NCBI RefSeq assembly: GCF_006345805.1
Contig: NC_042998.1
Location: 103,664,001-103,728,000, forward strand
DNA length: 64,000 nt
Reading direction: 5' to 3'
DNA from: Octopus sinensis
Taxonomy: Eukaryota
Below, piece by piece: positions 8,598 to 59,399 of the stretch (the stretch's first letter is position 1; each line of letters starts with the position of its first letter). Under the pieces are notes generated by a model that did no database searches, had not been told where the DNA came from, and was given only the letters and a program-made list of their open reading frames with translations. A program made the position numbers and the translations under genes.

Positions 8598-8729
8598 TGA
8601 GTTCCAATAGGATTTAAAATTGATCATTCCAAATATAGAGTTTGTACTCAGTGTTATTAAATCCACTCAATAACACTGTGTACAAACTCTATACTTAGAG
8701 TGATGAATTTTAAATCATATTGGAACTTA
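8598..8729. repeat. Long inverted repeat (~60 bp arms, 10 nt loop)
   Basis: GAGTTCCAATAGGATTTAAAATT...CAGTGTTATT / AATAACACTG...AATTTTAAATCATATTGGAACTT. Confidence 0.85.
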
Positions 8730-8890
8730 CTCACAAGGTATTGGAATCTTATATGTATACAATTCTGCCTAAATAATGCATCTACAGATGCAATATCCTT
8801 GCATATCTCACATCTATTTTCATTCCTCCACTTCACTCTCTATTTCATATCTTATCTAAAATAACTATTATTTAACCATTTTCTCACACC

Positions 8891-8938
8891 GTCTCCGATG
8901 AAGGGATATATAAGATATCCCGGAAACAGCTGTAAGAC
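8891..8938 (+). ncRNA. Minimal type I hammerhead ribozyme-like motif (PLE type)
   Basis: GTCT-CCGATGA-aGGGATAT ataag ATATCCCg-GAAAC-AGCT-GTA-AGAC. Stem I is GTCT/AGAC, stem II is 7 bp, stem III is palindromic (ACAGCTGT). Deviations: U4C in the core and an A.G mismatch at the base of stem II. Confidence 0.75.
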
Positions 8939-9113
8939 TTATTTATAAATGTTCTAAAATCTCTCACAGCCTTGGATTTTTATATCATTCTGAAAAATGT
9001 ATATATATATATATATTATATATATATATATATATATATATATATATATACATATAGATAGATAAATAGATAGATAGAGACATACATACATACATACATA
9101 CATACATACATAT

Positions 9114-9362
9114 AGGCGCAGGTGTGTATGTGTGATAAGAAGGTTGCTCCCCGATCACACATGTATCCGGGTTCAGTTCTACTGCGTGGCACCTTAGCCA
9201 AGAGTCTTCTAGATTAGCCACGGTCCGACTAAAGCTTTGTGAGTGGATTTAGTAGGCGAAAACTGAAAGAAGCCCGTCGTATATATATATATATATATAT
9301 ATATATATATATATAAAACGGCGGTGCATCAGCATGGCCACAGCTCTGAGCTGAAACTAGAG
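9114..9362 (+). mobile_element. tRNA-derived SINE family A (abundant octopus-type SINE), internally deleted
   Basis: Head GGCGCAGGTGTG...CCGGGTTCAGT...CCTTAGCCAAG, internal (TA)n, then a jump to the GGCGGTGC..CAGCATGGCC tail. Confidence 0.8.
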
Positions 9363-9452
9363 AGAATATATATATCATTTGATTCTCTGTCTGAACAGTT
9401 TTCAATCGAGGACTTTACATATTTCTCCTGCATGTACACTTTTGAAACCCCT

Positions 9453-9756
9453 TTGGATTAGGCAGACGGAAACTTAAAGAAGCCCTTCGTATATATATAT
9501 GTATATGCATATGTATATATGTGTGTGTATGTGTATGTTTGTTTGTCTGTGTTTGTCCTCCCAACATCGCTTGACAACCGAAGCTGGTGTGTTTACGTCC
9601 CCGTAACTTAGCGGTTCGGCAAAAGAGACCGATAGGATTAAGTACTAGGCTTACAAATAATAAGTCATGGGGTCGATTTGCTCGACTAAAGGCGGTACTC
9701 CAGCATGGCTATAGTCAAATGACTGAAACAAGTAAAAGAGTAAAAGAGTAAAGAGT
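9453..9756 (+). mobile_element. SINE family A, 5'-truncated
   Basis: Matches the body and tail of the full copy at 39725; ends in (GTAAAAGA)n. Confidence 0.85.
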
Positions 9757-12142
9757 ATGTATTCGCTCACATATATTTATAAAATTCCCTCTAAATTTAG
9801 ACTATGAGGAACGTGTGATGATTATTTTCTTATTCAGTTGTAAATATAAGTGATTCAACCAGCACCGCCCTTTCCAAATAAAAGGTAATAACTAAATTAC
9901 CCAAGTGTTTATTATAGATAACACTGGGGAGATTTTATTATACAAAAATACGTGAGTATTCATATTTCTAATGTAGAAAGTTTGTTGCTAGTTTCAAGTT
10001 GGTTTGGCTTATCAGTCTATTTTCTTGTTTTTCTTATAACTACTAACTCACTTATTATTTTTTTTGTTATACATTCACTCGCATGCGCACACATATACAC
10101 ACACGTACGCACGAACACGTACATGCATACACACATATAAACACACTCATATACACACATACTACACACACAAACATAAACGTGTGAGTGTATTAGTGTA
10201 TATATGTATGAATGCATGTATACACACACATATATATATATACACATTGTATCTGCACATATATATATATATATATGTACATATATATATATATGTATAT
10301 ACGTATATATATACATATATGTACATATATATATATATATACATATATATGTATATATGTATATATATACATATATGAACATATGTATATATATATATAT
10401 ATACATAGATGTATATATATATATATATATTTATGTATATATGTGTATATATATATATATATATAGTATATATATATATATATATATATATATATATATG
10501 CATATATGTATACATATATGCATATGTGTATATATATATATGTATATATATTATATATATATATATATATATATATATATATTCATATGAACACACACAC
10601 ACGCACACATATATATGCCGCTAGATAGATAAGTTCCCGACTCACCAAAACTAGCCATAAATGTATAAATATAAGTTCACAACTCTTTTAACTGATAAGT
10701 ATTGCCTGTTATTCTCGAGGTCACTGTAAATTATTATCTGATCGTAGGTTTATTAATTAGTTGATTTTGTATGATCCCGCCTTGGAACACCAACCAAAAC
10801 TAGGTATTATCACGTCGTTATTTCATTTTTCTCAATAACATTACGGAACAACAACACCAACAATATTAAGAATGCGAAGGAAGAAAAAATAATCTAGTAA
10901 TATTAACGATAATAACATTAAAAACCAATACTAAGATAAGTTAAGCTATGCAACATAAAAATGCATAGAAATAAGAACGTTCTCAAATTAATACATATAA
11001 CCACTGATGTTGCGCCGAAATCGAAATTCCCGCTTCGAGACATCACTAATGACATACTTGTAAAAATCATAGATTCCAAGTCCTAAACTGAAGGAGATGC
11101 ATAATAGTTAAGTCTAAAGGTATGTTAATACTCGATATGACAAGTACTATACTGGGGCTTACTGTTTAAAACATACACTAAACTATAACTTATTTTGGTA
11201 GCTGCAAATTGGTTGAAATTGAGTCATAGGTCGAATCGATTAGAACTGATTGCCTCTATCGAGCGATAAAAAAAAATCGTTGTCTGTTTTATCCAACATT
11301 TCATTGAGTTGATATTGTTATTTATGCCATTATTGTCAATAAATCCCAGACATAATCTTCGGTAAAAATACAACGAGGGACGGTTGTCGTTTATGACGTC
11401 AGAAAAACTATGAACAAATCACAATGATCAAATGAAATTCGCTGGGTGACTCATTCTGTTCATTTAACAACCAATCGAACAGTAACTATAATCCATCAAT
11501 ATTTGCGTAGCTGCTTAATAAAGCAAAACACGCCTATCTGACTCACTGCCTACTCTCATTAATGTATTTAACTGCGAGAGGGTTGTACTTTAGAATCCGA
11601 TCAGTAAAAAAAAACGTATATTTATATACATGCATGTACATTAATACATAAGTAGAGAAATACATATATAAATGCACATAAAAATGCACGCATACAGACA
11701 TGGCCATAACAATAAGATATTCATTACGCAATCACATAGATTCGTGTTCGATCCAGAAGTTGGGTAGATTGGTCAAGAGTTTTATAAAACAGCCCCGGGT
11801 CTAACTAAATTTTGCTAATGGAACTTGTAAAGCTAAACATGAACAGAAGTTTGTGGGCTCAAATAAATAATTGTACTGTTTCTAGAGTGGGTGACTTAAG
11901 CCTTTACTAAGTTCAACAACAATATCTGGGCCTCTGGTACCTTCAGCTGAGGCAGCTTTGAGCATTCGGGTCAAATTCATATATTTATTTGGAAAGTGTG
12001 AGTAGCAGTAAATATTTCTTTCTGCCAATCAATCTTAATAACGATGCGAAAGCATTCTGGAAGCTGTTGGTCCTCCCCAAGTATTCCATAAGGAGCACGT
12101 GGAGAATGCATAGCTATGAGTACATGTATTTATACATACACA

Positions 12143-12520
12143 GGCGTAGGAGTGGCTGTATGGTAAGAAGCTTGCTTCCCAACCACATGGTTCCGGGTTC
12201 AGTCCCACTGCGTGGCACCTTGGGCAAGTGTCTTCTACTATAGCCTCGGGCCGACCAAAGCCTTGTATATATATATATTATATATATATATATATATATA
12301 TATATATATATATATATATATATGCATGTATTTGTGTGTCTGTGTTTGTCCCCCACCATCACTTCACAACCGTTGTTTGTGTATTTACGTCCTTGTAACT
12401 TAGCGGTTCAGTAAAAGAGACTGATAGAAAAAGTACAAGACTTACAAAGAATGTCTTGGGGTAGATTTGTTCGACTAAAGGCGGTGCCCCAGCATGGCCG
12501 CATTCAGAAACAAAGAAAAG
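12143..12520 (+). mobile_element. SINE family A
   Basis: tRNA-like A/B boxes (GTGGCTGTATGGTAAG; CCGGGTTCAGTCCC), internal (TA)n and the family tail. Confidence 0.85.
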
Positions 12521-57848: not shown

Positions 57849-57989
57849 CATACATACATACATACATACATACATACATATATGCATACATGCATACATA
57901 CATATGTGTATATATATATATATATATATATATATATATATATATAAACTTGTAAATAGATACATGCACATATGTATATATGTATATAT

Positions 57990-58560
57990 ATAGGAAAGAG
58001 GGTTTGAAAATGCAGAGGTCTTTTAAAACTACAAATCTCTGAACAATACAAATCAAAATACGGCCTGTCTTTCCACAAATACTTGTTGGAGAATTGGAAA
58101 TGCTACTTGGATGACTGCCTTATCCCATGGTCTCACATATTCGAACAACTCAATGAATTCAAGAATTTAATCAACATTGTCAACAACCATATCCAATTTA
58201 CGATGGAATATAGTGAAGACCAACTTCAATTTCTAGACATTCTTATTGTAAAAAAAGCCACCAACATTAAAACTGATACCCACTACAAACCAACTGATTC
58301 TAACCAATACCTTCTGTTCACCTCCAATCACTCAAAGCATATAAAGGCAAACATCCCCTTCAATCTAGCGAGAAGAATCTGTAGAATTGTCTCAAATTTT
58401 AGAACGCGAAATAAAAGACCCCAAGAACTAAAAGCAATTCTTTTCGAAATACAGTACGCAGCATCATTAGTTGACAATGGAATAGAACGGGCCAAGACAA
58501 TCGATATGTAAGACTTACGAAAACCGAAACACATTCCATTTACTCCTCATTTGGAACATT
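57990..58560 (+). mobile_element. Penelope-like reverse transcriptase fragment (ORF 58083-58511)
   Basis: WKCYLDDCLIPW (YxDD), IQFTME...LQFLDI, YKPTDSNQYL...S.H..HIK.NIPFNLARRICRIVS. Confidence 0.9.
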
Positions 58561-58589
58561 GAACGACAATATGAATCTTCGAAGGGTAG

Positions 58590-58722
58590 TTGCTTCCGCA
58601 GACCAAAATAAAATTGGGATTTGAGGAGGGTCACAGTTTTCACACCTACATCTACTTTGTGTCGGTCCTTCAGCCTCTTTGGGAGAATATTAAAATGCTG
58701 TGGGTCCTTGAAACCCAGGCTA
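58590..58722 (-). mobile_element. CR1-type LINE small 3' fragment
   Basis: SLGFKDPQHFNILPKRLKD parallels FTSIGPALFNITP in the 51609 ORF. Confidence 0.55.
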
Positions 58723-58769
58723 CACACACACACACACACACACACACACACACACACATATATATATAT

Positions 58770-58920
58770 TAGTACCTCTCTCCCCATTTTTCTTCTATCA
58801 TCCCTTTCTGTCGAAGAACGTTGAATCGACCCGTCAAAGTCTTTTCCATTCTTCCCGACTGTCAAACTAACTCCCTCTCCTGTCTCTGTTCTTCTGTCTT
58901 TTGTTTTGTGTTCAGTTTAA
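58770..58920 (+). mobile_element. PLE pLTR with degenerate hammerhead (58804-58839)
   Basis: CTTT-CTGTCGA-agaac gttg aatc-GACCC-GTC-AAAG; downstream sequence is homologous to the 16300-16422 copy. Confidence 0.6.
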
Positions 58921-59057
58921 CCACATACATACATACATACATACATACATACATACATACATACATACATACATACACACACAACACACATACATACATA
59001 CATACACATACATACATACATACATACATACATACATACTTACGTACGTACGTACAT

Positions 59058-59399
59058 GAGTAAATGTAAAGATAAACAAGTTTGGTAAGTCGATATGCAA
59101 AAAATATTAAAGTCATTTAATACAAAAAATGTAGATATGTTTAAATAAGAATGTCCGACTTACACAGAAGAGAAACGATATCAGGAAATAAAGGGGTTGG
59201 ATAAGACTTAACGAGTCCACCAGCTGTTTCTGGGGGCTTGGTGATCCAAAGAAACAGCTGTTGGACTCGTAAAACTGTTATTCAACCCTTTTAATTCCTG
59301 ACATCATTTCTGTTCTGCGTAAGTCGGACCTTCTTATATGTGAACAAGTGTACGTTTTGTATATCAACGTGCCTAACTTGCTTATCCTTACATTTGCTC
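59058..59399. repeat. Long diverged inverted repeat (~150-170 bp arms)
   Basis: ACGAGTCCACCAGCTGTTTCT pairs with AGAAACAGCTGTTGGACTCGT, GTCCGACTTAC with GTAAGTCGGAC, and GAGTAAATGTAA with TTACATTTGCTC. Confidence 0.9.

What the first reader, a model, noticed from the sequence alone, without database searches (positions are those of the whole stretch)
8598..59399. Candidate class of hammerhead-centred foldback (snap-back) Penelope-derived elements
Seen: six long inverted repeats of unrelated sequence (8598, 28310, 44819, 50389, 50877, 59058), most abutting TA/TACA arrays, several with one arm running on beyond the pairing region. In at least two (44819, 59058), and probably a third (28310), the fold axis lies just 5' of a hammerhead 3' half (GAAAC-like, stem III, GUH), i.e. 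where stem II would be. In two more, a whole or relic hammerhead sits at the apex. Known: PLE pseudo-LTRs carry minimal type I hammerheads with palindromic stem III, and PLE insertions often have inverted pLTR pieces. Inference: nascent cDNA folds back on the ribozyme's stem II and self-primes, giving short coding-free hairpin insertions. These would be mis-annotated as MITEs, and if transcribed would give dsRNA in an animal group with heavy ADAR editing.
Basis: partly seen in the sequence, partly recalled or inferred. Interest (0 to 1): 0.8.

Follow-up and report, generated by a model that had tools for sequence, protein, structure and literature searches.

The report
Mirror-image Penelope retroelement insertion stubs
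The six DNA palindromes are real, short head-to-head leftovers of a known kind of jumping gene (Penelope-like); across the genome their centres are not fixed on the ribozyme but pile up at the likely start of the element's RNA, and they were likely built from two DNA copies joined end to end.

Summary
All six inverted repeats are real. Each is a head-to-head pair of pseudo-LTR (pLTR) stubs from a different dispersed family. Two families (44819, 28310) sit directly behind an RT + GIY-YIG Penelope ORF; the other four show the same anatomy (minimal hammerhead, (TA)n or related target, 'tail' at one end). This structure, and self-priming as its explanation, are published (Arkhipova 2013; Cervera 2014; Craig 2021). 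This scan also found it in two other genomes.

The stem II claim fails: 3 of 70 position-sampled family-A arm ends lie in stem II (about 9.5 expected if uniform), with no significant excess in families C or E.

Ends pile up instead at an initiator-like site about 30 nt after a TATA box. In a variant with a 48-nt insertion, 48 of 57 arms stop within 12 nt, and the peak is shifted by 48 nt. Families B and C have edges at TCA motifs too.

The tail is on one end in 50 of 53 stubs, often on the shorter arm, and some copies carry tail-only or abutting inversions. This points to two target-primed cDNAs rather than one snap-back. Known kind; useful mechanistic lead.

The parts
8600..8658 (-). Family C: short inverted copy of the 5' end of the long arm (does not reach the pLTR 3' end)
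8667..8999 (+). Family C: 5'-truncated pLTR arm, begins about 20 nt after the family's initiator-like TCACTT edge, ends in (TA)n, no tail
8891..8938 (+). Family C minimal type I hammerhead, core CCGAUGA (U4C, the commonest core in 22 of 41 copies counted), palindromic stem III
28307..28470 (-). Family D inverted pLTR arm with whole hammerhead (28376-28405, minus strand)
28482..28645 (+). Family D pLTR arm with whole hammerhead at 28547-28576; family lies behind a PLE ORF end in 14 loci
44818..44916 (-). Family A inverted pLTR arm, no tail, on (TA)n
44918..45015 (+). Family A pLTR arm starting in the stem II loop; 3' half of a variant hammerhead (GCAA, palindromic stem III) at 44927-44936
45016..45047 (+). 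Family A PLE tail (about 32 nt; continues into the ORF 5' region in the long copy L143)
50389..50523 (-). Family E longer arm without tail, holding a whole hammerhead (50431-50508) with an about 58-nt stem II region
50521..50690 (+). Family E shorter arm (hammerhead 3' half 50554-50565) plus tail from about 50608
50877..50987 (-). Family F arm with whole hammerhead 50940-50978; runs on into family sequence below 50877
50995..51097 (+). Family F inverted, decayed arm
59058..59250 (-). Family B longer arm without tail, on (TACA)n; GAAAC half at 59219-59230
59250..59470 (+). Family B shorter arm (GAAAC half 59251-59262) plus tail from about 59400

Best explanation
Each palindrome is a short head-to-head insertion of two pLTR pieces of a Penelope-like retrotransposon, likely made when the element's protein nicks both strands of an AT-rich target and primes two cDNAs, one from each of its two internal start sites, which likely stop at the RNA's 5' end and are then joined. 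SHOWN: PLE identity of families A and D; head-to-head layout; tail at one end only; variable centres; no stem II peak; sharp edges at initiator-like sites. INFERRED: those edges are transcription starts; two cDNAs on one RNA; a joint sealed by microhomology or blunt end-joining with locally templated inserts (polymerase-theta-like, recalled), with a short snap-back of one cDNA as a possible helper step. The hammerhead is often near the centre only because it lies just downstream of the start site.
For: (1) A: 705-aa stop-free ORF with RVT_1 and GIY-YIG; the arm lies within 2.5 kb behind the ORF end in 29 loci for A and 14 for D. (2) A arm ends: 27 of 70 at offsets 82-88 (p 2e-13 against uniform), 16 at 123-136, 3 in stem II. 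(3) Natural experiment: variant A1 has a 48-nt insert between TATAAG and the hammerhead; 48 of 57 A1 arms stop at 127-138, while 0 of 29 A2-typed arms that pass offset 111 stop there (2 stop at 121). Both peaks lie about 30 nt after the same TATA box. (4) B: 5 of 23 query-found and 2 of 14 position-sampled arms start exactly at the A of TCATTC, one more in each set a base before it; 3 and 2 run past -128. C: 8 of 24 start within 6 nt of the A of TCACTT. (5) Tail on exactly one end in 50 of 53 short A stubs; on the shorter arm 22, longer 18. In long two-arm copies with one tail: shorter 7, longer 2, equal 1. No B, C or E hit has both tails (0 of 85). (6) Tail-only inversions: L301, L305, L309, L260, L083, L131. 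Abutting non-overlapping inversions of twin-priming type: L047, L303, L310, L273. (7) Only 5 of 33 insert-free junctions allow a hairpin with 2 or more base pairs and a loop of 3 or more; symmetric joints fall on self-complementary words. (8) In vitro, a PLE nicks and extends both strands, starts at two sites that bound the tail, is predicted to be a dimer and does not need hammerhead cleavage (PMC11167929). The promoter lies in the pLTR (PMC2377424).
Against: No RNA 5'-end data: the start sites are inferred from motifs. Stubs ending at 85-88 cannot be typed as A1 or A2 (no linked variant), and that site also offers ATAT microhomology to the (TA)n target and is the 5' edge of stem I. Families C and E show mostly scattered ends, and C has a small cluster at the hammerhead's 5' edge (-26 to -31, 4 of 30). 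Short inverted duplications of an arm's own 5' end (window C, L283, L304, L308, L326) look like true snap-back. Later deletions at palindrome centres could blur which arm was longer. Six loci share one identical A1 junction and may be re-mobilised copies. B, C and F have no ORF link in my loci and E only a weak one. 4 of the 53 stubs were misparsed because of indels.
Confidence: 0.6

Rival explanations
1. Same stubs, but one cDNA folds back on its own 3' end wherever it stops (often at the RNA 5' end) and self-primes the second arm; the one-sided tail comes from endonuclease trimming of the intermediate.
For: Published reading (PMC3846280 self-priming; PMC8557442 tail from EN resolution). Near-symmetric centres away from hot spots (window A 72/71, L006, L031, L118) and short 5' inverted duplications (window C, L283, L304, L308).
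Against: Tail on the shorter arm in 22 of 40 short and 7 of 9 long asymmetric A copies; tail-only and abutting inversions; 28 of 33 clean junctions lack a usable stem-loop.
Confidence: 0.27
2. One reading: cDNA folds back specifically on hammerhead stem II.
For: True locally for window copies A and B and one end of E. E shows 8 of 24 ends in its long stem II region.
Against: A 3 of 70 (7 of 76 with the window copy and two more added; about 10 expected), C 2 of 25, E p 0.11. D and C window axes are 90 and 259 nt from G12.
Confidence: 0.04
3. Some palindromes are non-autonomous units that are copied whole (MITE-like, PLE-mobilised).
For: Six A1 loci share an identical junction, five with the central T read on the tail arm; L351, L357 and L147 hold repeated stubs.
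Against: Most junctions are unique; L355 follows the parent past the shared centre; arms run into PLE ORFs; no transposase link or fixed TSD seen.
Confidence: 0.07
4. Assembly fold-back artefacts.
For: The window A junction was not bridged in 4 contig sets; the assembly shows many homopolymer indels.
Against: Arms differ by 8-25% in five of six window copies; tails are one-sided; contigs of 4 other runs show many head-to-head family-E joints, and one 72-nt contig matches 50479-50550 exactly, though with under 31 letters on its short side.
Confidence: 0.02

Closest known systems
Canonical EN+ Penelope-like element insertions with inverted pLTR and tail (Arkhipova 2013 PMC3846280; Craig 2021 PMC8557442; Schostak 2008 PMC2377424)
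   Same: RT then GIY-YIG ORF, pLTR, adjacent inverted 5'-truncated copy, 30-40 nt tail at one end, AT-rich or (TA)n targets, palindrome at the inverted junction, TATA/Inr-like motifs in the pLTR.
   Different: Here most copies are coding-free stubs and hundreds of junctions can be mapped; tails in C reach about 140 nt; the edge at the putative start and the tail-on-short-arm pattern were not found in the passages I read.
Minimal type I hammerheads of metazoan PLEs (Cervera and de la Pena 2014, PMC4209133)
   Same: Short or palindromic stem III, U3-A8 core variant, and pairs on opposite strands 100-700 bp apart.
   Different: Family A adds C at position 13 (GCAA in 101 of 102), family C mostly U4C, family E an about 58-nt stem II region; activity untested.
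LINE-1 twin-priming 5' inversions (recalled, no call)
   Same: Two target ends prime on one RNA; abutting inverted segment as in L047, L303, L310, L273.
   Different: In PLE stubs both cDNAs usually start at the element's 3' part, so the arms overlap and form a palindrome with a one-sided tail.
MITEs / foldback DNA transposons (recalled)
   Same: Short, coding-free, long inverted arms, TA context.
   Different: Centre varies per copy, ends are unequal (tail), arms are retroelement pLTR with a ribozyme, no transposase link seen.
Non-LTR retrozymes (bioRxiv 10.64898/2026.07.22.740005; only the abstract start and a term search seen)
   Same: Non-autonomous PLE-related sequences with hammerheads.
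   Different: Tandem head-to-tail units; 'palindrom' and 'tail' do not occur in that text.

Membership tests
EN+ Penelope-like element | ORF with RT followed by GIY-YIG endonuclease, linked to the repeat | tested here: met
   Family A: L038 RVT_1 + GIY-YIG, 29 linked loci; family D: 14 linked loci by tblastn
EN+ Penelope-like element | ORF link for families B, C, E, F | tested here: inconclusive
   None for B, C, F; 2 weak cases for E, after 20 extra 6.3-kb stretches
EN+ Penelope-like element | pLTR with adjacent inverted 5'-truncated copy | tested here: met
EN+ Penelope-like element | Optional tail at one end | tested here: met
   A 50 of 53; B, C, E never both in 85 hits; D seen by eye; F not scored
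EN+ Penelope-like element | Minimal type I hammerhead in the pLTR | tested here: met
   A, C, D, E, F by descriptor or inspection and core counts; B has core halves but I saw no stem I
EN+ Penelope-like element | RT phylogeny placing it in a named clade (Penelope/Poseidon, Neptune, Nematis) | not tested
   No named references held
Hammerhead ribozyme (active) | Self-cleavage | not testable with these tools
   No hammerhead family among the 150 Rfam rows shown of 378; needs an assay
MITE | Fixed internal structure and equal terminal inverted repeats | tested here: not met
   Variable centres and one-sided tails; TSDs cannot be read in (TA)n

The most novel reading that the evidence does not exclude
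PLEs integrate by dual target-primed reverse transcription: a dimer primes from both target nicks at the two tail-bounding start sites on one RNA, both cDNAs run to the RNA 5' end, and host end-joining fuses their 3' ends. This single step would explain inverted pLTRs, the one-sided tail and junction palindromes, and would make palindrome centres a fossil map of PLE transcription starts.
Probability: 0.45. Interest if true: 0.7.

Novelty: new member of a known kind. Interest (0 to 1): 0.4.

Why it matters
The objects are ordinary PLE by-products, but how PLE tandem/inverted structures and tails form is named as unresolved (PMC8557442, PMC11167929). A very young family with 327 exact motif hits, a near-intact ORF and a 48-nt promoter indel gives a ready genomic test of dual priming against snap-back and predicts exact transcription starts. 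In practice, such stubs would be mislabelled as MITEs or miRNA hairpins. Fixed core variants (U3-A8 with A13C; U4C) let one ask whether PLE hammerheads need to cleave at all.

Tried and rejected
Rfam scan: the 150 rows shown were mostly microsatellite-driven miRNA hits below gathering score, none a hammerhead family; 228 lower rows were not shown. MITE/TIR reading of family A: dropped when interiors turned out to be PLE ORF. The 48-nt A1 insert as an intron: no GT-AG fit on either strand (by inspection). Ends at the hammerhead cut site: 2 of 99 arms at offsets 41-52 and 2 at 53-61, no peak. A fixed centre for family E, suggested: a query artefact; the position-sampled set is scattered. Typing the 85-88 stubs by linked variants: none found. 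ORF link for B, C, F: not found. Expression: no RNA holder listed. Window A junction: not covered by contigs in 4 runs, which proves nothing. Literature searches for a two-cDNA or start-site model of PLE inversions found none in open-licence text; subscription papers (Arkhipova 2006, Evgen'ev and Arkhipova 2005, Lunse 2017; recalled, not seen) and all supplements, including those of PMC11167929, were not read and may hold it.
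Full report
OBSERVATION. Self-alignment confirms six inverted repeats; labels: C 8598, D 28310, A 44819, E 50389, F 50877, B 59058. Scores of 79-251 exceed the best of 200 shuffles (37). A hammerhead descriptor allowing one core mismatch found whole motifs at 8895-8934 (+), 28547-28576 (+) and 50978-50940 (-), and palindromic 3' halves in A, B, D and E. 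No hammerhead family was among the Rfam rows shown. In the window, the axis lies in the stem II region for A and B and for one end of E. It lies 9 nt 5' of the core in F, about 90 nt from G12 in D and about 259 nt from it in C.

WHAT THEY ARE. The window is G000:C2:103664001-103728000 of a 2.7-Gb genome. Each palindrome belongs to its own dispersed family (first-look candidates A 477, B 977, C 3695, D 955, E 1940, F 142). Family A is very young: 327 exact hits of a 41-nt motif. Interiors range from zero to several kb and hold a 705-aa stop-free ORF with RVT_1 and GIY-YIG. The window arm lies behind the ORF end in 29 loci for A and 14 for D; E has two weak cases; B, C and F have none in the loci held. 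All families but B show a complete minimal hammerhead. A reads UUGAUAA (97 of 98) and GCAA (101 of 102); C mostly CCGAUGA (22 of 41); E CUGAAGA with a long stem II region. The sequence that runs on past one arm is the PLE tail, which in the long copy L143 continues into the ORF 5' region.

TEST OF THE STEM II MODEL. To avoid query bias I sampled copies by exact motifs near the pLTR 3' end, in genome order. For A I used loci L081-L150, which cover most of the first 100 of 327 hits. Six hits (window, L008, L005) were held and added separately; the last five were not in this set. Of 99 arm ends, 70 lie at offsets 41-136: 3 in stem II (62-74), 27 at 82-88 and 16 at 123-136. With the added loci, stem II has 7 of 76; uniform expectation is about 10. 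A few long arms are under-called because of indels (L090, L120, L131). For C (30 of 54 hits) 2 of 25 ends within -280..-1 fall in stem II. For E (30 of 1178 hits) 8 of 24 fall in its 58-nt region (p 0.11). B (25 of 25 hits) is scattered from +126 to about -150.

WHERE THE ENDS PILE UP. Family A has two variants that differ by a 48-nt insert between a TATAAG box and the hammerhead. A genome-wide A1 motif search gave 64 hits. Among 57 distinct arms examined, 48 stop at offsets 127-138, around TCAGA, and 9 run on. Of 29 A2-typed arms that pass offset 111, none stops there. The other peak (85-88) is exactly 48 nt nearer, the same 30 nt from the TATA box. Caveats: stubs ending at 85-88 cannot be typed, and that site is also ATAT microhomology and the stem I edge. 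In B, arms start at the A of TCATTC (-124): 5 of 23 exactly in the query-found set, 2 of 14 in the position-sampled set, with one more in each a base earlier and few running past. In C, 8 of 24 long arms start within 6 nt of the A of TCACTT (-275), 28 nt after a TATA-like word; 5 start 16-21 nt later, as the window copy does, and 11 run on. The Inr and TATA labels are from recalled consensus; Arkhipova 2013 notes TATA plus TCACT in a pLTR and Schostak 2008 maps the promoter to the pLTR. I infer that the edge is the RNA 5' end.

ONE cDNA OR TWO. A target-primed cDNA that snaps back is the longer arm, and its copy cannot hold sequence it lacks. Yet among 53 short A stubs (biased and unbiased loci pooled, 4 misparsed) the tail is on exactly one end in 50, on the shorter arm in 22 and the longer in 18. 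In long two-arm copies it is on the shorter arm in 7, the longer in 2, equal in 1, with one further copy tailed at both ends. Tail-only inversions occur (3 of 30 C hits, 1 of 30 E hits, L083 and L131 in A). So do abutting, non-overlapping inversions (L047, L303, L310, L273); in L047 the tailed strand skips almost exactly the part covered by the other arm. Of 33 insert-free junctions, 5 allow a stem of 2 or more with a loop of 3 or more, 20 allow 0-1 base pair and 8 allow none. Symmetric joints sit on self-complementary words, including the palindromic stem III in L140. Of 15 well-parsed inserts, the 5 of 10 nt or more each hold 8-23 locally templated bases. Against this, short inverted duplications of an arm's own 5' end (window C, L283, L304, L308, L326) resemble real snap-back, so a mixed route (one cDNA folds back briefly, then anneals to the second) remains open. 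Frangieh 2024 (PMC11167929, main text read) shows both strands cleaved and extended, two RT starts bounding the tail, a predicted dimer and no need for hammerhead cleavage. In the main text I read, it does not explain inversions.

READ EVIDENCE. Only assembled contigs were offered. The A junction was not bridged. For E, a 72-nt contig matches 50479-50550 exactly, with under 31 letters on its short side, so it is weak support; many other head-to-head family-E joints appear in four runs.

KNOWN VERSUS NEW. Arkhipova 2013 (PMC3846280, abstract and passages) describes inverted pLTRs, tails and palindromes at inverted junctions and proposes self-priming. Cervera 2014 (PMC4209133, parts 1-2 of 4) reports U3-A8 cores and opposite-strand pairs 100-700 bp apart. 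Craig 2021 (PMC8557442, passages) shows the same layout and (TA)n targets and calls the mechanism undefined. Perreault 2011 (PMC3088659, passages) mentions U4C; its one A13 mention is the consensus. PMC9977147 (passages) reports very short PLE insertions. Two earlier scan notes describe the same stubs in other genomes; none exists for this genome. My nine searches found no start-site or two-cDNA model, but subscription papers and supplements were not seen.

VERDICT. Real, ordinary in kind, not hammerhead-centred by mechanism. The value lies in the junction statistics, which favour dual priming with termination at the RNA 5' end. Interest 0.40.

Noticed in passing
window 7219-7337: A seventh, 70% inverted repeat. 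It is a fixed internal hairpin of a different dispersed repeat (all 40 scored copies match nearly the whole 161-nt query), not a PLE stub; identity unknown.
   Followed up: partly
window 58008-58550: Decayed PLE RT fragment, about 50% identical to the family A protein, 500 nt left of palindrome B; no link shown.
   Followed up: partly
window 56773-56880: Second family E copy: a single antisense arm after a TA array.
   Followed up: partly
family A, e.g. L038 and L143 pLTRs: Hammerhead core fixed as UUGAUAA plus GCAA (U3-A8 with A13C) in a very young, ORF-intact family; may be catalytically weak or dead. I found no report of A13C, but searched only lightly.
   Followed up: partly
family B, e.g. 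L069, L318: Two 5' core-like words (CUGAAGA, then CCGAUGA) precede one GAAAC half; I saw no stem I; possibly a duplicated or relic ribozyme.
   Followed up: partly
L351, L357, L147, L130, L032: Stubs repeated in tandem or a few hundred bases to 2 kb apart, showing local re-insertion or partial tandems of palindromic units.
   Followed up: no
L112: 90-nt junction insert with templated repeats around about 50 nt of foreign sequence.
   Followed up: no
window 2192-2671 (+): 160-aa open stretch that looks like a Tc1/mariner-type helix-turn-helix region (recalled, untested).
   Followed up: no
window 9116-9760, 39726-40218, 61608-62066 and others; 22844-23228, 28667-29040, 59893-60079: Abundant SINE-like repeats, often split by microsatellites.
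   Followed up: no
window 57621-57720; 62057-62865: 100-N assembly gap; about 400-nt tandem duplication with 101-nt subrepeats.
   Followed up: no
runs X1, X2, X4, X8 laid on 44825-45045: Loose ends show a one-letter variant of the family A 85-88 site that lacks the ATAT word; testing whether the peak persists in those genomes would separate start site from microhomology.
   Followed up: no
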